Shown here in pieces: positions 34,301 to 40,337 of a stretch of DNA of 60,485 nucleotides. How positions within the stretch are numbered: the first letter of the stretch is position 1; the number at the start of each line of letters is the position of its first letter. The notes under the pieces were generated by a model. It worked only from the letters and a program-made list of their open reading frames with translations, did no database searches and had not been told where the DNA came from. This stretch comes from a virus (Duplodnaviria; Heunggongvirae; Uroviricota; Caudoviricetes): positions 1 to 60,485 of the IMG/VR virus record IMGVR_UViG_2671181056_000013; one strand, given 5' to 3'. Both the position numbers and the translations under genes were made by a program.

Positions 34301-35038
34301 ATGTCTAATACCCATGTAAAAAACATCAAGCTTGGTGCCTGCAAGGTATCATTTGGTGGTGTGGATCTGGGTTACACCAAAGGTGGTGTTCAGGTTGAAG
34401 TAGCCACTGAAACGCTTAAAGTTACAGTCGATCAACAAGGTCAGACAGTAATCTCTGAATTGGTTCAGGGGCGTAACATTACCATTACCGCACCTCTGGC
34501 CGAGTCTGTGCTCAAAAACATGGTCGATCTTATGCCTGGTTCTACTTTGAGCGAAGATGACAACTCCGTCACCATCACATCTGCACAGGGCGTAAATCTG
34601 ATCAACGTGGCGAAGGAACTCGTCCTGACACCGCAGGACACCACCGACTATGTGTTGACGCTCCCGAAAGCGGCAACCGCTGGCAACTTCACTATGTCCT
34701 ACCAGTCTGATGATGTACGTGTGTTCTCTGTTCAGTTCAACGCGTACCCTGATGATGAGGGGGTTCTTGGCAAAATGAGTGGCCCAAAACCGGTGAAAAA
34801 CGTGACGATTACACCTGAATCTCCGAGTGTAAAGGTCGGGGCGACAGTTCAACTGACTGCTAATTTCACCCCAGATGATGTAGTTGATAAAACAGGCGTA
34901 TGGTCATCTGATAATAAAAAAGCCACTGTTGATCACACTGGTCTTGTGCGTGGTGTGGAACAAGGTTCTGCAAACATATCATTCACCAGCAATAGCGGTA
35001 GCAAGAAAGTAACCAAATTAGTGACGGTTAATCAATAA
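34301..35038 (+). CDS. major tail protein with C-terminal Ig-like (Big_2-type) domain
   Basis: The C-terminal roughly 80 aa match the Big_2 pattern (VTITPESPSVKVGATVQLTA...VWSSDNKKATVD...); lies just upstream of the chaperone and tape-measure genes. Confidence 0.75.
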   Translation: MSNTHVKNIKLGACKVSFGGVDLGYTKGGVQVEVATETLKVTVDQQGQTVISELVQGRNITITAPLAESVLKNMVDLMPGSTLSEDDNSVTITSAQGVNLINVAKELVLTPQDTTDYVLTLPKAATAGNFTMSYQSDDVRVFSVQFNAYPDDEGVLGKMSGPKPVKNVTITPESPSVKVGATVQLTANFTPDDVVDKTGVWSSDNKKATVDHTGLVRGVEQGSANISFTSNSGSKKVTKLVTVNQ

Positions 35039-35105: not shown

Positions 35106-35423
35106 ATGACAAAATTACTCGATCTCGACTCCATCCTACCTCCTAAAAAAAGTGTCAAATTTGGCGGCCAGGAATATCCCATCGTTGAAATGACGGTAGG
35201 TCTGTTCGTTTCCATTAAGCAGATGGAAGGTAAAGATCTGACCAATATGTCTCCTGTTGAGCAAGTGACAGCTTATGCAGATCTGGTTCGCAAGGTTATC
35301 CCTTCAGTGCCCGACGAAGTTCTTGAAAAACTGACTGTTCCGCAACTTCAGCAGATCTTCACCTTCGCTATGGAAGTGATTGATGAAGAAAACGAAAAAG
35401 CGGCTGGCGAAGGGGCAAAGTAA
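35106..35423 (+). CDS. tail assembly chaperone (lambda G-like)
   Basis: Small acidic protein immediately upstream of the tape measure. Confidence 0.6.
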   Translation: MTKLLDLDSILPPKKSVKFGGQEYPIVEMTVGLFVSIKQMEGKDLTNMSPVEQVTAYADLVRKVIPSVPDEVLEKLTVPQLQQIFTFAMEVIDEENEKAAGEGAK

Positions 35424-35773
35424 TTTCCCGCGATGAATCCGGGACAAGGACCGTCTCAATAGATCTCGGATTCTATTTCAGTCGTATAGTTGCTCACTAC
35501 GCCGTGTCGCCGTTAGAACTACTGAACATCCCTCTCACGATGTTCTGGATGCTCAGTCGCAACATCGACCGTCTACGTGCGGAAGAGGATGTCCGCAACC
35601 TGCAAGTCGCTCGCGCTGCTCAGGCAGATGGCGAGGGCGTGAAGGCGTTCATGGAGGGTTTGCAACTCAGGATTGGAAGACCAGTCGTAACAGATAAAGT
35701 CTACGATCCAAGCCAGGATAGGGCAGACCCTGACGCCAAAGAGCAACTGATGCAAATATTTGGCAGAGGATGA
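35387..35773 (+). other. -1-frame open segment overlapping the chaperone 3' end: candidate frameshift extension (G-T-like)
   Basis: The frame is open from 35387 to 35773 with no stop, overlapping the chaperone's last 36 nt; an A-rich stretch GAAAACGAAAAAG lies in the overlap. No canonical slippery heptamer identified. Confidence 0.45.
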
Positions 35774-38700
35774 CAAGGGAATGTCACAAAACGTAGAGTT
35801 TATCCTGTCGCTGGAAGACAAACAGTTTACAGCGTCAATCGATCGTGCGGGAAAACTGCTTACTCGATTTGGTGAGCAGGTAACAAAGCCTGCTCAAAAA
35901 ATCCAAACCTTTGAACGCTCTTTGGGTTCGGTCGCCCGTATCATTGGCGTTCTGGAAAGCAAGCTCGATTCTACGGCAGATAAACTACAGGATGTAGCTG
36001 TCGGTTTTGAGCTTGCTTCAGATGCTACGCGTAAAATGCGTGGCAACATCACCAGCCTCAATTCTGGTCTTAAAGCTCTGATTGAGCGCGTCGATACGAC
36101 AACTTCTTCAGTAGATAAACTCACCGCGTCATTACGTAAAGTGCAATCAGAGCTAAATGATTTCTCTGACTGGGCGACCTATGCAAGCAAAAGCGCAAGC
36201 CGTTTTGGTACGGAGGTCAAAGAAGCCTCTGCGTCCGTGAGTGGCATGAATACGCGCCTTAACACCACGACGAAGCGACTCAGTAATTGGGGTGTGACAA
36301 CAAGCCAGGCTGCCGAGGGACTAAAAAAAGTTCGTGAGCAGATGGACGAAGTTATCGGACGTCAGCAACTCATTAACAAGCCTGTACGCGTTCGCACATC
36401 AGGAAGCGGAAATGGTGGGGGTAGCGGTGGACGTGGTGGTTACTCTTGGCATATCGGTAAAAATAACGAAGGCAGTATGTTCTCTGGCCTTCGTGGCAAC
36501 ATTTTCCTGCTTGGTGAGATCGGAGATGCTGCAAGAACCGTCACCAGTATCATGTTTGGTTGGCAGAAGCCTATTATTGAAGCTGCGGCCGAAATGGAAC
36601 GTATGCGGGTGATGCTTCGAGGGTTGAATAAGGAGAAGTCCAACCCGGGCCAGGCTGCCGCTGATGATATGAAGTACATCGTAGACATGGCTCAAAATGC
36701 GCCGTTCGCGATGCAGGCGTTAACAGACTCCTTCGTGAAGTTTCGTTCTGCTGGCTTAGATCCAACCGATGGTTCTCTGAAGGCGCTGGTGGACTCCGTT
36801 GCTCGTTTTGGTGGTGATAGTGAGCTGTTGAAACGTGCGGCTGTGGCCGTTCAGCAGATGTCCGGTAAGGGCGTTGTGTCAATGGAAGAGCTACGTCAGC
36901 AATTAGGTGAAGCCGTTCCTAACGCGATGCAGGCAATGGCAGACGCCGCAGGCATCACTATGGGGGAACTGACTAAAGCCGTTGCCAGCGGTACGGTTGA
37001 GGCAAAACAGGCGTTGTCTCTGATGTTTGTTGGTCTGCGTGCGGAGAATGAGAACGCAGCGAAAGACATGATGCAAACCTACACAGGTGCGCTGGCGCAA
37101 CTTCAGACGTCATTCACGTTATTTGCTGATCGGGTTGGTCAGGCCGGATATCTGGATTCTCTATCGAAGGGGATGAAAGAACTGGCTTCAATCATGAATA
37201 GCGCCGAAGGGATTTCGTTTGCCAATTCTTTAGGTTCGGGGTTAACGACGGCAATCGATGGGTTGCGTCAGCTTGCTCAATGGTTAGCAAAGAACCAAGA
37301 GCTGGTAATTAATCTCGGTAAGGTCGTGGCCGCGATGGTTGCGTTCAAACTGATGCGAGCAGGGATCATGGGAGTAGTTGGCGCAGGCAGCAAGATGGTT
37401 AGCACCTTTGCCACGATGGCGACCGCCATACAGACTCCATTTAACCTCGGCGCTACAGCAGTAACTCGATTCAATCGTGCGGCACGTATGGGGCTGGCTC
37501 CGATCCCCTCTCTTATTTTCGCCATCCGTGGGGCGATTACGGGGCTTAAAGGCGCTTTTGCTGGATTAACGGCGTTCATTGCAGCAAATCCTATAGGGGC
37601 AGCATTTACAGTTGCCACTGTAGCTGTTGCTGGCCTAATCACGTACATGACCATGCTCCGCAGCGAAACTTCAAAGGTCGTTGACGAGATTAGGAAAATA
37701 CCAGAGGCGATGACGGCGGCCAAACGTGCACAAATGGCCGACCGCGCAGAAAAGCTCGAAAAGCAGATTCTTGCTGATCAACGAGCATTAAAAACTGGTG
37801 AGGGTGTTAATTACGTATCTAACTCTGCCGGTGTTATTACTCACAAAGAGTCGAAGGCTGACATCGAAGCACGCCTGAAAAAAAATCAGGAAGAGTATCA
37901 AAAGATAACCGGCACGATAGCTCTTGGTGACGGCGCTGTAGCAAAGCGTTTGGCTAAAGAGGCTGCCGAATCTCAGATTGAGAAAATTCGAGCGGAAAAC
38001 CAGATTTTCGCGGCAACATTCGTGAAAGCCCGGCAGGAGGCTCTGGATAAGATCCAGAAAATCAATGATGACGGTTCACTTTCAGATGACGAAAAGAACA
38101 AGCTATTGGCACCGTTACGTGAAACGGTAAACAAAAGCTATCTGGAGCCTGCGCAAAAACTGGTTGATTCATTTTCTTCTCGTAAGAATGCTACCGAGAA
38201 GCAAATAGCGACTCTTAATGATCAGCTTGAAAAAGCCAAAAAGGATGGAAATACCGAGCAAATCCAGAAACTGCAAGGCAGTATCCGTGGTTATCAGGAG
38301 CATTTGGAAGCCGTTGCTCAGGAACTGACACAGGCAGAGTTCGAGAGAGATAACGCGGCCAAAACTGGTAAGGGCGTAATGTCAAACCAGGGGACTGTTC
38401 TTGGGTTAGGTACAACTGATAAAGCTGCTCAGAAGGCGCTGGCGCAATATATGCGAAACCAGATGGATTCTGCGACTTATCAACGTACTTTGCCTGACGG
38501 CACTCCGATGATGGACTTCGAAGGTAAGCCGATTATTGGGCCTAAACAACTCAAGACGCAGCTTAATTTGCAGAAAGCATCCAGTGCCAGCTCTCTGGAG
38601 AAAATGAGCGATGAAGAGCGTGCCGCAGCCATTGCCGCACTGACTAAAGCTCGTGAACAGGATGCCGCAGCCGCCGAGAAAGCAGCCCAACGATCAGCTA

Positions 38701-40337
38701 ATGCCTCGCAGCGTGCGGCCAAGAAAGAACAGACAGCGCAACAGAAACTGGCAGCCGGATACCAGAAGGCTCTGGATAAAGCCGATCAGCTTATGGGGCA
38801 AATGGGTGAAAGCTCTAAGGCTACGGTATCGTTTGATCAGTCTCTTCGCGATACAACGAAATCGCTGACAGATTTGGCTAATGCGGTTCCTAACGAGTTC
38901 ATCACTCAAGAGATGATCGACAAGGCGAAAAAACGTCTTGAAGACCTCAAAAATGCGACACCTGAATATCGCGAGATGTTTAATCGCCGCAATGTTGAGC
39001 AGATGATCTCCACCTGGGCACCGGAGTCGGATTCCATTATTAGTGCTGGCTATACGCCGTCTCGTGAAGAGAAAGTTGCTGATTTCGAAGACACCTACAA
39101 CCGCAATCTCAAAGCGTTGATAGAACTTCGTGATAAGGCGTCTGATCCTAAAGTTGTGGCGCTTTATACAAAGAAAATCAATCAACTGATTGCTGCTGGC
39201 AATACCGCGCTTATTAAAGAGACGGGGACTGCGACGCAGAAGTTGGCACTGGAATACGAAAACCTGGCAGAGCAGATCGAAAGCACCTGGACTGATTTGT
39301 TTAGTGGCTTAACTGATGTCCTGACTGATTTCGTTATTAACGGGAAGATGAGTTTCTCCAGCCTATCTCAGTCCATTTTGAAAGATATCACCAATATGGT
39401 CGTGAAGTCGCAAATCACGCTGCCTCTAATGAACATGTTGGGGATGGGAACCACCGCAGCTGGTAGTTCACAGAGTGGTAATTTGCTGACCGGGGTTGCT
39501 TCCGCCGTTGCCAATCAAGGGGTACGAATGGGCAACACTGTTAACGGCGACAAGTCGGTAGGAGAAGCCACGAAGGAGACGTCCAGTTCGGTAACTGGAT
39601 TAGGGCAAACAACACAGCAGACCACCAGCGCAATTGGCACTGCAACAAATGCGATTGGTAGCTGGGTATCAGGGCTATTTGATAGCACTGAAGCCAAAGA
39701 TGCCGAGACAAAAGCCGTGAAGGACTCCATCTTCTCGATGCAGAACCTCAGCTCTGTTACCGGCGCGCTGTCTGCCGCGTTTGCAATGCTTGGAGCTAAT
39801 GCTTCCGGCTCTGGTAATAAGTGGTTGAGTTTTGGAGCAACGGTTGCATCTGGTCTTGTTTCAGCTTGGGCTGGCGGTGGTTTCGACAGCTTGACATCAA
39901 GCTCTGCTAAAACCGCAACCAGCAGTGTGGCTGACGGAACTAAAGGCATTCCTGCAATCCCGAAGTTTGCAAATGGAGGAATATTCGGAAAAGACGGCGT
40001 GATCCCGCTCCGGGCATACCAGAAAGGCGGTATTGCTAACTCGCCTCAATTAGCGTTGTTTGGGGAAGGTTCTATGAATGAGGCGTATGTTCCATTGCCT
40101 GATGGCCGAACAATCCCTGTAACGCTCAGTACCGATGGTATGAGTGGAGGCGGAAATGTTCTTTCTCCTGTATCAATTGAGATCAACGTCCATAGTGACG
40201 GTAGCACAACTGAATCCGGCGATACAGAAAGCATATGGAACAATGCCGCTCAACGGATGAAAGCAATCGCGCTTGAGACTATCGCTCAAGAGAAACGCCC
40301 TGGCGGATCACTCAACCCAAACACTCAACGTAACTAA
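35760..40337 (+). CDS. tail tape measure protein
   Basis: 1525 aa, Ala/Gly-rich with hydrophobic segments, in the canonical position. Confidence 0.85.
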   Translation: MAEDDKGMSQNVEFILSLEDKQFTASIDRAGKLLTRFGEQVTKPAQKIQTFERSLGSVARIIGVLESKLDSTADKLQDVAVGFELASDATRKMRGNITSLNSGLKALIERVDTTTSSVDKLTASLRKVQSELNDFSDWATYASKSASRFGTEVKEASASVSGMNTRLNTTTKRLSNWGVTTSQAAEGLKKVREQMDEVIGRQQLINKPVRVRTSGSGNGGGSGGRGGYSWHIGKNNEGSMFSGLRGNIFLLGEIGDAARTVTSIMFGWQKPIIEAAAEMERMRVMLRGLNKEKSNPGQAAADDMKYIVDMAQNAPFAMQALTDSFVKFRSAGLDPTDGSLKALVDSVARFGGDSELLKRAAVAVQQMSGKGVVSMEELRQQLGEAVPNAMQAMADAAGITMGELTKAVASGTVEAKQALSLMFVGLRAENENAAKDMMQTYTGALAQLQTSFTLFADRVGQAGYLDSLSKGMKELASIMNSAEGISFANSLGSGLTTAIDGLRQLAQWLAKNQELVINLGKVVAAMVAFKLMRAGIMGVVGAGSKMVSTFATMATAIQTPFNLGATAVTRFNRAARMGLAPIPSLIFAIRGAITGLKGAFAGLTAFIAANPIGAAFTVATVAVAGLITYMTMLRSETSKVVDEIRKIPEAMTAAKRAQMADRAEKLEKQILADQRALKTGEGVNYVSNSAGVITHKESKADIEARLKKNQEEYQKITGTIALGDGAVAKRLAKEAAESQIEKIRAENQIFAATFVKARQEALDKIQKINDDGSLSDDEKNKLLAPLRETVNKSYLEPAQKLVDSFSSRKNATEKQIATLNDQLEKAKKDGNTEQIQKLQGSIRGYQEHLEAVAQELTQAEFERDNAAKTGKGVMSNQGTVLGLGTTDKAAQKALAQYMRNQMDSATYQRTLPDGTPMMDFEGKPIIGPKQLKTQLNLQKASSASSLEKMSDEERAAAIAALTKAREQDAAAAEKAAQRSANASQRAAKKEQTAQQKLAAGYQKALDKADQLMGQMGESSKATVSFDQSLRDTTKSLTDLANAVPNEFITQEMIDKAKKRLEDLKNATPEYREMFNRRNVEQMISTWAPESDSIISAGYTPSREEKVADFEDTYNRNLKALIELRDKASDPKVVALYTKKINQLIAAGNTALIKETGTATQKLALEYENLAEQIESTWTDLFSGLTDVLTDFVINGKMSFSSLSQSILKDITNMVVKSQITLPLMNMLGMGTTAAGSSQSGNLLTGVASAVANQGVRMGNTVNGDKSVGEATKETSSSVTGLGQTTQQTTSAIGTATNAIGSWVSGLFDSTEAKDAETKAVKDSIFSMQNLSSVTGALSAAFAMLGANASGSGNKWLSFGATVASGLVSAWAGGGFDSLTSSSAKTATSSVADGTKGIPAIPKFANGGIFGKDGVIPLRAYQKGGIANSPQLALFGEGSMNEAYVPLPDGRTIPVTLSTDGMSGGGNVLSPVSIEINVHSDGSTTESGDTESIWNNAAQRMKAIALETIAQEKRPGGSLNPNTQRN

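What the first reader, a model, noticed from the sequence alone, without database searches (positions are those of the whole stretch)
35387..35773. Candidate programmed -1 frameshift extending the tail assembly chaperone
The -1 frame is open for 387 nt starting inside the last 36 nt of the G-like chaperone gene and ending inside the tape-measure start region, the conserved G/GT arrangement of long-tailed phages. The overlap contains GAAAACGAAAAAG but no textbook X-XXY-YYZ heptamer, so the shift site may be non-canonical.
Basis: partly seen in the sequence, partly recalled or inferred. Interest (0 to 1): 0.4.

Follow-up and report, generated by a model that had tools for sequence, protein, structure and literature searches.

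The report
Tail chaperone G/GT -1 frameshift
This SSU5-like phage-plasmid almost certainly makes its long tail-assembly chaperone by the usual ribosomal -1 slip seen in long-tailed phages.

Summary
The -1 frame is open from 35387 to 35773, overlapping the end of a 105-aa gene (35106-35423) that lies between the major tail and tape-measure genes. Chance is unlikely (P about 8e-5).

Comparative evidence strongly supports a programmed -1 frameshift giving a 222-aa G-T fusion:
- The 80 nt between the G stop and the only start codon (GTG 35504) vary mostly at the third codon position of the -1 frame (4/4/17).
- They tolerate only 3-nt indels.
- They encode residues conserved down to 24-36% identity.
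- GTG 35504 is lost in other clades, and no start has a Shine-Dalgarno sequence.

SSU5 and many relatives have a -1-frame TGA downstream of it, and more distant relatives lack the run. What is invariant is NNA_AAG followed directly by the stop (GCA AAG TAA, 35415-35423). All seven distant homologues examined carry canonical heptamers in their G/-1 overlap; in three the heptamer directly abuts the stop (e.g. G_GGA_AAG TAA).

A 10-bp stem (35435-35444/35464-35473) shows covariation but starts 14 nt downstream.

This is a known mechanism in an unannotated lineage, using a rarer but already described motif.

The parts
34301..35038 (+). Major tail (tube) protein, 245 aa, with a C-terminal Big_2 Ig-like domain. 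It is the upstream synteny anchor.
   Evidence: Pfam Big_2 E 2e-22. PHROG 1280 and several 'major tail protein' PHROGs.
35106..35423 (+). G-like tail assembly chaperone gene, 105 aa, frame 0, stop TAA at 35421-35423.
   Evidence: ORF list. Lies between the tail tube and tape-measure genes. PHROG 893, function unknown. AF2 model pLDDT 71; best BFVD match is a 'Tail assembly chaperone', E 4.8e-4, TM 0.63.
35387..35773 (+).
   Evidence: Chance estimate.
35394..35400 (+). It is not the conserved shift site, though a weak A_AAA slip here cannot be excluded in this clade.
   Evidence: In SSU5 and many relatives GGC>GGT creates a -1-frame TGA downstream of it. The run is absent (GAACGAAGCC) in relatives with 59-64% identical G.
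35415..35420 (+). Proposed shift site: hexanucleotide GCA_AAG, with core tetramer A_AAG at 35417-35420. tRNA-Lys re-pairs from AAG (35418-35420) to AAA (35417-35419).
   Evidence: NNA AAG TA[A/G] is invariant in all 91 related loci that carry the junction motif, while neighbouring codons vary. In most relatives the -1 frame opens only 10 nt before the stop. Three of seven distant homologues have G_GGA_AAG/C + TAA at this spot.
35421..35423 (+). Zero-frame stop codon TAA directly 3' of the slippery codon (a 'shifty stop' context).
   Evidence: TAA or TAG in all relatives. The same heptamer-plus-stop layout occurs in L093, L094 and L097, and at the tail-tube/Ig junction of L085, L087 and L091.
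35420..35773 (+). T extension read in the -1 frame after the slip: 117 aa, VISRDESG...IFGRG, stop TGA at 35771-35773. The predicted G-T fusion is 222 aa.
   Evidence: PHROG 1131 covers residues 34-117. Homologous over its full length to the -1 ORF of Pseudomonas phage hairong, E 6e-14. Alignment A5.
35424..35503 (+). Segment with no start codon between the G stop and GTG 35504. It is under coding constraint in the -1 frame.
   Evidence: Variable sites 4/4/17 at codon positions 1/2/3 of the -1 frame in 60 distinct relatives. Indels are 3 nt only. It encodes I14, D15, R22 and Y27, which are invariant or nearly invariant down to 24-36% identity.
35504..35506 (+). GTG, the rival independent start used in GenBank and RefSeq annotation.
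   Evidence: It is GTA, GTC, GTT or ATT in other clades, and there is no Shine-Dalgarno sequence upstream (AGTTGCTCACTAC).
35435..35473 (+). Conserved stem-loop: GAAUCCGGGA (35435-35444) pairs with UCUCGGAUUC (35464-35473), with a 19-nt loop and dG about -13 kcal/mol. It is a candidate stimulator.
   Evidence: 98.5% of cells paired, 3 pairs with compensatory changes, 0 of 500 shuffles reach the covariation score, and slid controls are far lower. RNAalifold recovers it. Energy. It starts 14 nt after the slippery codon, so a stimulator role is uncertain.
35426..35444 (+). Alternative small hairpin UCCCG/CGGGA, starting 5-6 nt after AAG. It is mutually exclusive with the 10-bp stem.
   Evidence: dG -8 kcal/mol. 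A 3-bp core is always paired, there is no covariation, and the outer pairs are broken in two clades.
35781..40337 (+). Tape-measure protein (1518 aa from the ATG). It is the downstream synteny anchor.
   Evidence: Pfam TMP_3 E 2.5e-27 and Tape_meas_lam_C E 6e-13. Start as in public records.

Best explanation
Genes 35106-35423 and 35420-35773 are the G and T parts of a lambda-type tail assembly chaperone.

Most ribosomes terminate at TAA 35421 and make the 105-aa G protein. A minority slip back one base, when tRNA-Lys moves from AAG (35418-35420) to the overlapping AAA (35417-19) within GCA_AAG. This probably happens while the slowly decoded stop codon sits in the A site. Those ribosomes then read GUA AUU UCC ... 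to the TGA at 35771 and make a 222-aa G-T fusion (...GEGAK-VISRDESG...).

By analogy with lambda, the G part would coat the tape-measure protein and the T part would recruit the tail tube protein. A fixed low G-T:G ratio would be set by the slip frequency.

Shown by sequence comparison: the T frame is translated upstream of any start codon, and the only conserved slippery element accessible to it is A_AAG plus the stop.

Inferred: the slip itself, its efficiency, any stimulation by the stop codon or the downstream stem-loop, and the chaperone function.
For: 1. Synteny: tail tube, then a 105-aa ORF, then the -1 ORF, then the tape measure.
2. The coding phase switches exactly at the G stop. Variation is at frame-0 third positions in 35385-35423 (0/2/8) and at -1-frame third positions in 35424-35503 (4/4/17) and 35504-35770 (18/24/80).
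3. GTG 35504 is not conserved. The only universally conserved start is the Met of FWML (codon about 44), which has no SD. In L091 the first possible start is codon 45.
4. T residues I14, D15, R22 and Y27, all upstream of the GTG, are conserved down to 24-36% identity. T is homologous to the hairong -1 ORF, E 6e-14.
5. In SSU5 and most relatives the -1 frame opens only 10 nt before the stop. NNA AAG TAA/TAG is invariant in 91 loci while flanking codons vary. The terminal Lys is always AAG, although AAA is the commoner Lys codon locally (91 vs 59).
6. All seven homologues with 25-38% identical G have canonical heptamers in the overlap. Three have the heptamer directly before the stop (G_GGA_AAG TAA twice, G_GGA_AAC TAA once).
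7. Literature: A_AAG is by far the most shift-prone tetramer in E. coli, reaching 5.6% with a stimulator (PMC4066793). NNA_AAG sites are used by IS1222 and occur in B. subtilis cdd (PMC5009743).
8. The G model's best structural match is an annotated tail assembly chaperone.
Against: - There is no experimental evidence; everything is comparative.
- In reporter assays the tetramers without a stimulator were barely above background (mean 0.147% vs 0.112%; PMC4066793), so a stimulator is needed.
- The best-supported stem starts 14 nt after the slippery codon, further than the 5-nt spacer used with the IS3 pseudoknot in those constructs.
- The correctly spaced small hairpin has no covariation and is degraded in two clades.
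- The whole 116-nt region is not unusually stable (z -0.76).
- G and T match no Pfam or NCBIfam family. The PDB fold search gave nothing.
- From my own knowledge, UAAU is an efficient termination context, which argues against a long pause at the stop.
Confidence: 0.8

Rival explanations
1. The frameshift occurs, but at the A-rich run GAA_AAA_G (35394-35400) highlighted by the first reader. It would be a single-tRNA A_AAA slip giving ...EENEK-SGWRRGKVISRD...
For: In this window's clade the -1 frame is open from 35387, so the site is usable. A_AAA is among the six tetramers measurably above background in E. coli.
Against: In SSU5 and many other relatives GGT creates a TGA in the -1 frame between this run and T. 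The run is absent in relatives with 59-64% identical G, which still keep T. A_AAA is the weakest of the active tetramers. Codon-position variation in 35385-35423 follows frame 0, not -1.
Confidence: 0.05
2. There is no frameshift. The downstream ORF is an independent small protein started at GTG 35504 or at a downstream ATG, as annotated in GenBank and RefSeq.
For: All public records, including 232 RefSeq E. coli plasmids, annotate two separate hypothetical proteins. PHROG 1131 begins near that start.
Against: The GTG is GTA, GTC, GTT or ATT in other clades, and no candidate start has an SD. The 28 codons upstream are under coding constraint and hold the most conserved T residues. Distant homologues carry canonical slippery heptamers in the overlap.
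Confidence: 0.07
3. Termination followed by reinitiation: ribosomes stop at TAA 35421 and restart nearby on a non-canonical codon (for example AUU 35423-35425), giving a separate full-length T protein.
For: The stop and the beginning of the conserved T frame coincide. This would also explain conservation upstream of the GTG.
Against: The AUU is AUA in the Klebsiella clade. No ATG/GTG/TTG lies within 9 codons in any relative. The invariant A_AAG and the canonical heptamers in homologues are unexplained by reinitiation.
Confidence: 0.03
4. It is a chance open frame, or a decayed gene: a single G-T ORF broken by a mutation or an assembly error.
For: None specific. One database protein (P0002) reads through via a 1-nt difference in the A run.
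Against: The two-frame layout is identical in 91 loci, in 232 E. coli plasmids and in seven distant homologues. The probability of an open frame by chance is about 8e-5.
Confidence: 0.02

Closest known systems
Bacteriophage lambda gpG/gpGT programmed -1 frameshift, and the conserved G/GT arrangement of long-tailed phages (Levin 1993; Xu, Hendrix and Duda 2004, as cited in PMC5009743)
   Same: A small ORF lies between the tail tube and tape-measure genes. A -1 ORF overlaps its 3' end, has no start of its own and ends at the tape-measure start. The slip involves tRNA-Lys on ..A_AAG near the end of G. Distant homologues of this G use lambda's own heptamer, G_GGA_AAG.
   Different: The first half of the heptamer is lost here (G_GCA_AAG instead of G_GGA_AAG), so only one tRNA can re-pair well. 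The site abuts the stop codon. There is no detectable sequence similarity to lambda G or T, or to any Pfam TAC family.
Hexanucleotide NNA_AAG / tetranucleotide A_AAG -1 frameshift sites: IS1222 (G_CGA_AAG) and B. subtilis cdd (A_CGA_AAG) (PMC5009743; PMC4066793)
   Same: There is a single-tRNA-Lys slip on A_AAG, with a 5' codon ending in A that cannot re-pair well. The expected level is low and depends on the 5' codon and on stimulators.
   Different: The 5' codon is GCA or GUA rather than CGA. The setting is a phage tail chaperone rather than a transposase. A zero-frame stop follows immediately.
'Shifty stop' frameshifting (Weiss et al. 1987, cited in PMC5009743)
   Same: A slippery codon sits in the P site while a slowly decoded stop occupies the A site.
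   Different: That the stop contributes here is inferred only from its invariant adjacency. It was not measured.

Membership tests
Phage tail assembly chaperone G/GT frameshift pair (lambda type) | Two overlapping ORFs located between the major tail protein gene and the tape-measure gene | tested here: met
   Tail tube 34301-35038, G 35106-35423, -1 ORF to 35773, tape measure from 35781. The order is the same in all relatives.
Phage tail assembly chaperone G/GT frameshift pair (lambda type) | The downstream ORF has no start or SD of its own and is conserved as protein right from the overlap | tested here: met
   Codon-position variation 4/4/17 upstream of the GTG. Starts are not conserved and lack an SD. 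Conserved residues lie upstream of any start.
Phage tail assembly chaperone G/GT frameshift pair (lambda type) | Canonical X_XXY_YYZ slippery heptamer in the overlap | tested here: not met
   There is none in the window, only GCA_AAG. All seven distant homologues have one in the G/-1 overlap, three of them directly before the stop. Tetramer and hexamer sites are accepted -1 motifs, so this lowers 'textbook' status rather than the mechanism.
Phage tail assembly chaperone G/GT frameshift pair (lambda type) | G protein related in sequence or fold to known tail assembly chaperones | tested here: inconclusive
   No Pfam or NCBIfam hit. Two of 71 family members hit Phage_TAC_7 weakly, E 0.002. The PDB search gave nothing. 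The top BFVD hit is a 'Tail assembly chaperone', E 4.8e-4, TM 0.63, and several more annotated TACs appear lower in the list, from a pLDDT-71 model.
Phage tail assembly chaperone G/GT frameshift pair (lambda type) | A fusion protein is made at a low fixed ratio, is required for tail assembly and is absent from virions | not testable with these tools
   This needs proteomics and genetics.
A_AAG / NNA_AAG single-tRNA -1 frameshift sites | A zero-frame AAG codon preceded by A, with the -1 frame open from that point | tested here: met
   GCA AAG at 35415-35420. The -1 frame is open from 35387 here, and from 10 nt before the stop in most relatives.
A_AAG / NNA_AAG single-tRNA -1 frameshift sites | A stimulatory element (3' structure, 5' SD-like sequence or adjacent stop) that raises the slip above background | tested here: inconclusive
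   An adjacent stop is invariant. The 10-bp stem has covariation but a 14-nt spacer. The small hairpin with a 5-6-nt spacer is unsupported. The upstream GAAGGGG is not conserved. Strong hairpins lie 4-9 nt downstream in four distant homologues.
A_AAG / NNA_AAG single-tRNA -1 frameshift sites | Measured -1 frameshifting at the site | not testable with these tools
   This needs a reporter assay or mass spectrometry.

The most novel reading that the evidence does not exclude
The SSU5 phage-plasmid lineage has replaced the ancestral two-tRNA heptamer (G_GGA_AAG plus stop, still present in distant relatives) with a one-tRNA hexamer (GCA/GUA_AAG plus stop), together with a distally placed stem-loop.

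If so, the G-T:G ratio would depend unusually strongly on the state of host tRNA-Lys and tRNA-Ala/Val wobble modifications and on release-factor activity. Tail assembly of a plasmid-borne prophage would then be coupled to host physiology.

The same 'AAG + stop' logic also controls addition of the Ig domain to the tail tube in sister lineages.
Probability: 0.12. Interest if true: 0.5.

Novelty: new member of a known kind. Interest (0 to 1): 0.3.

Why it matters
- **Annotation.** The G/GT frameshift is missing from every public record of this widespread phage-plasmid group: 13 phage records, and plasmids in 232 of 5426 complete E. coli genomes. PHROGs 893 and 1131 are labelled 'unknown function'. 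The second ORF is given arbitrary starts that cut off its most conserved residues.
- **Frameshift prediction.** This is a clean natural example of a canonical heptamer decaying to an NNA_AAG hexamer next to a stop. Heptamer-based predictors would miss it.
- **Biology.** Nothing new is implied about tail assembly.

Tried and rejected
- **Fused G-T protein search.** It returned only 6 chimeric or error-derived proteins and was not informative.
- **Pfam and NCBIfam scans of G and T; Pfam scan of T homologues.** No hits.
- **PDB searches by fold and by profile.** Nothing meaningful.
- **Locus searches.** Single distant proteins P0038 and P0040 found nothing in IMG/VR.
- **MFE fold of 35385-35500.** Not more stable than shuffles (z -0.76), so no claim is made for a large structure.
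- **H-type pseudoknot.** I considered UCCCG/CGGGA plus GAAUC/GAUUC with ideal 5-nt spacing. The covariation at columns 37-38/58-59 favours the extended 10-bp hairpin instead, and the first stem is broken in two clades.
- **Upstream SD-like stimulator (GAAGGGG).** Rejected because it is not conserved.
- **Other recoding mechanisms.** Transcriptional slippage is rejected because the conserved site has only three A's. Readthrough is rejected because T is in another frame.
- **Literature.** A search for an SSU5-specific description of this frameshift found none.

Full report
**What the window is.** The region is 99.8% identical to Escherichia phage PhiR41_1 and 87% identical to Salmonella phage SSU5. 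This is the SSU5-like phage-plasmid group of Escherichia, Salmonella and Klebsiella. The same segment sits on plasmids in 232 of 5426 complete E. coli genomes.

**The observation.** The details check out against the sequence.
- A 105-aa ORF (35106-35423, frame 0) follows the tail tube gene (34301-35038, with a Big_2 domain) and precedes the tape-measure gene (TMP_3 and Tape_meas_lam_C domains).
- The -1 frame has a TGA at 35384-35386 and is then open from 35387 to the TGA at 35771-35773.
- GAAAACGAAAAAG is at 35388-35400, and no in-frame X_XXY_YYZ heptamer exists in the overlap.
- The open frame is not chance. The local -1-frame stop frequency of 0.077 per codon gives P of about 8e-5 for 117 codons, and only 23 of 5000 dinucleotide shuffles stay open.
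- The -1 ORF ends 8 nt before the ATG (35781) that public records use for the tape measure. It overlaps that gene only if the TTG at 35760 is taken as the start.

**Is the -1 ORF translated from the overlap?** The only start codon before codon 41 of the extension is GTG 35504, and no Shine-Dalgarno sequence precedes it. I aligned 60 distinct relatives. Variable sites then show a clean switch of coding phase at the G stop:

| Segment | Variable sites | Where variation concentrates |
|---|---|---|
| 35106-35384 | 36/15/131 | frame-0 third positions |
| 35385-35423 | 0/2/8 | frame-0 third positions |
| 35424-35503 | 4/4/17 | -1-frame third positions |
| 35504-35770 | 18/24/80 | -1-frame third positions |

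Counts are given in the order first/second/third codon position of the frame named in the last column.

Further points agree with this.
- Indels in the start-less segment are 3 nt long.
- The GTG becomes GTA in the Klebsiella clade, GTC or GTT in a clade at 72-74%, and ATT in clades at 60-64%.
- The only start conserved everywhere is the Met of FWML at about codon 44, with no SD. In L091 nothing earlier exists.
- In a T alignment reaching 24-36% identity, I14, D15, R22 and Y27 are invariant or nearly so, and all lie upstream of the GTG.

Independent initiation therefore cannot explain the conservation.

**Where is the shift?** In SSU5 itself and many relatives a synonymous GGC>GGT change creates a TGA in the -1 frame. 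The -1 frame then opens only 10 nt before the G stop, so a slip at GAAAAAG would terminate at once. Relatives whose G is 59-64% identical lack the A run altogether (GAACGAAGCC).

What never changes is NNA AAG TA[A/G]. It occurs as GCA AAG or GTA AAG in 91 loci, while the two preceding codons vary (GGG, GAG, GAA, GAC). Three details point to selection on the nucleotides rather than on the protein:
- The terminal Lys is always AAG, although AAA is the commoner Lys codon in the neighbouring genes (91 vs 59).
- The third base of the penultimate codon stays A even when the amino acid changes between Ala and Val.
- Seven distant homologues (G 25-38% identical; metagenomic contigs and Pseudomonas phage hairong) all carry canonical heptamers in their G/-1 overlap: G_GGA_AAG TAA (L093, L094), G_GGA_AAC TAA (L097), G_GGA_AAC (L095, L098), A_AAA_AAA (L096) and G_GGA_AAA (hairong).

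Each of those distant -1 ORFs is homologous to T (hairong: E 6e-14; alignment) and ends at or a few nucleotides before the tape-measure start. The SSU5-type site therefore looks like the heptamer-plus-stop of L093/L094 with its first half decayed (G_GGA_AAG to G_GCA_AAG).

**Mechanism.** The minimal -1 site is a Z_ZZN tetramer. In E. coli A_AAG is by far the most efficient one, reaching up to 5.6% with a strong 3' pseudoknot, but tetramers are barely above background on their own (PMC4066793).
- NNA_AAG hexamers are used by IS1222 (G_CGA_AAG) and occur in B. subtilis cdd. Their efficiency depends on the wobble behaviour of the tRNA reading the 5' codon (PMC5009743).
- E. coli has a single tRNA-Lys for both AAA and AAG.
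- I therefore propose that tRNA-Lys slips from AAG (35418-35420) to AAA (35417-35419). Decoding would resume at GUA 35420 and give ...GEGAK-VISRDESG..., a 222-aa fusion.
- From my own knowledge, not verified here: GCA and GUA are both read by cmo5U34 tRNAs with broad wobble, which would fit the NNA_AAG rule.

**Stimulators.** The invariant adjacent stop is one candidate (the 'shifty stop').

A 10-bp stem, GAAUCCGGGA (35435-35444) with UCUCGGAUUC (35464-35473), dG about -13 kcal/mol, is recovered by RNAalifold. It shows 98.5% paired cells, three pairs with compensatory changes (including U-A to G-C in the Photorhabdus sequence) and 0 of 500 shuffles reaching its covariation score. Slid controls are far lower. 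However, it begins 14 nt after the slippery codon, and the sequences are related and also protein-coding. Its role is uncertain.

A small UCCCG/CGGGA hairpin has ideal spacing, but it shows no covariation and is degraded in two clades.

Strong hairpins lie 4-9 nt downstream of the heptamer in L093, L094, L097 and L098 (z -2.9 to -4.3). Some of them involve the homologous 'ID[FL]' codons. A 3' structure may therefore be a family trait.

**Is the 105-aa protein a tail assembly chaperone?**
- Sequence libraries give nothing: no Pfam or NCBIfam hit, and PHROG 893 is 'unknown function'.
- A profile search found 464 relatives, those listed about 100-130 aa long. Two of 71 hit Phage_TAC_7 weakly.
- An AF2 model (pLDDT 71) finds nothing in the PDB. 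In BFVD its best match is an annotated tail assembly chaperone (E 4.8e-4, TM 0.63), with several more annotated TACs lower in the list.
- Membership thus rests mainly on synteny and the frameshift architecture, which is usual for this very divergent class.

**Status in databases.** Every phage record and the RefSeq plasmids annotate two hypothetical proteins with no slippage. No paper in the library describes the frameshift for SSU5.

**Verdict.** The shift site is relocated to GCA_AAG plus the stop (35415-35423). This is a known kind of system with a known, if less common, motif class, in a lineage where it is unannotated. It is of modest interest, and it is useful for annotation and as a test case for frameshift predictors.

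Noticed in passing
window 34783-34789 (tail tube gene 34301-35038); L085 1150-1200, L087, L091: In Raoultella-type relatives the tail tube ORF (163 aa) ends GCC CCA AAG TAA/TAG. That is a canonical C_CCA_AAG heptamer directly before a stop. The -1 frame then continues 96-98 codons into the Big_2 Ig-like domain, so this is probably a second programmed -1 frameshift with the same 'AAG + stop' layout. In the window the two parts are fused in frame. The homologous spot is an in-frame C_CCA_AAA heptamer, and a slip there would stop about 10 codons later and give an Ig-less tube protein.
   Followed up: partly
window 35504-35773 and 35106-35423; public records PV340561, NC_018843, OV696614, MZ779062: Public annotation gives the T ORF arbitrary starts (GTG in E. 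coli records, a downstream ATG in SSU5 and pJN2-26). This trims off its most conserved residues. PHROG 893 (G) and PHROG 1131 (T) are labelled 'unknown function' and could be relabelled as the tail assembly chaperone G and T parts.
   Followed up: yes
window 35419-35424 with 35495-35500: RNAalifold also predicts an outer helix pairing AGUAAU (the end of the slip site plus the stop) with GUUGCU about 75 nt downstream. The pairs are invariant or change on one side only, so there is no evidence either way.
   Followed up: no
protein P0002 (ENA contig of 111.5 kb): One database protein reads ...EENEKSGWRRGKVISRDESG..., a G-T fusion through the A5 run. This presumably reflects a 1-nt length difference in GAAAAAG in that assembly, either a sequencing error or a natural indel at the homopolymer.
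   Followed up: no
window 35760 vs 35781: The ORF tool starts the tape-measure gene at TTG 35760, overlapping the end of T. Public records use ATG 35781, which is preceded by AAGGGA. The ATG is the more likely start.
   Followed up: partly
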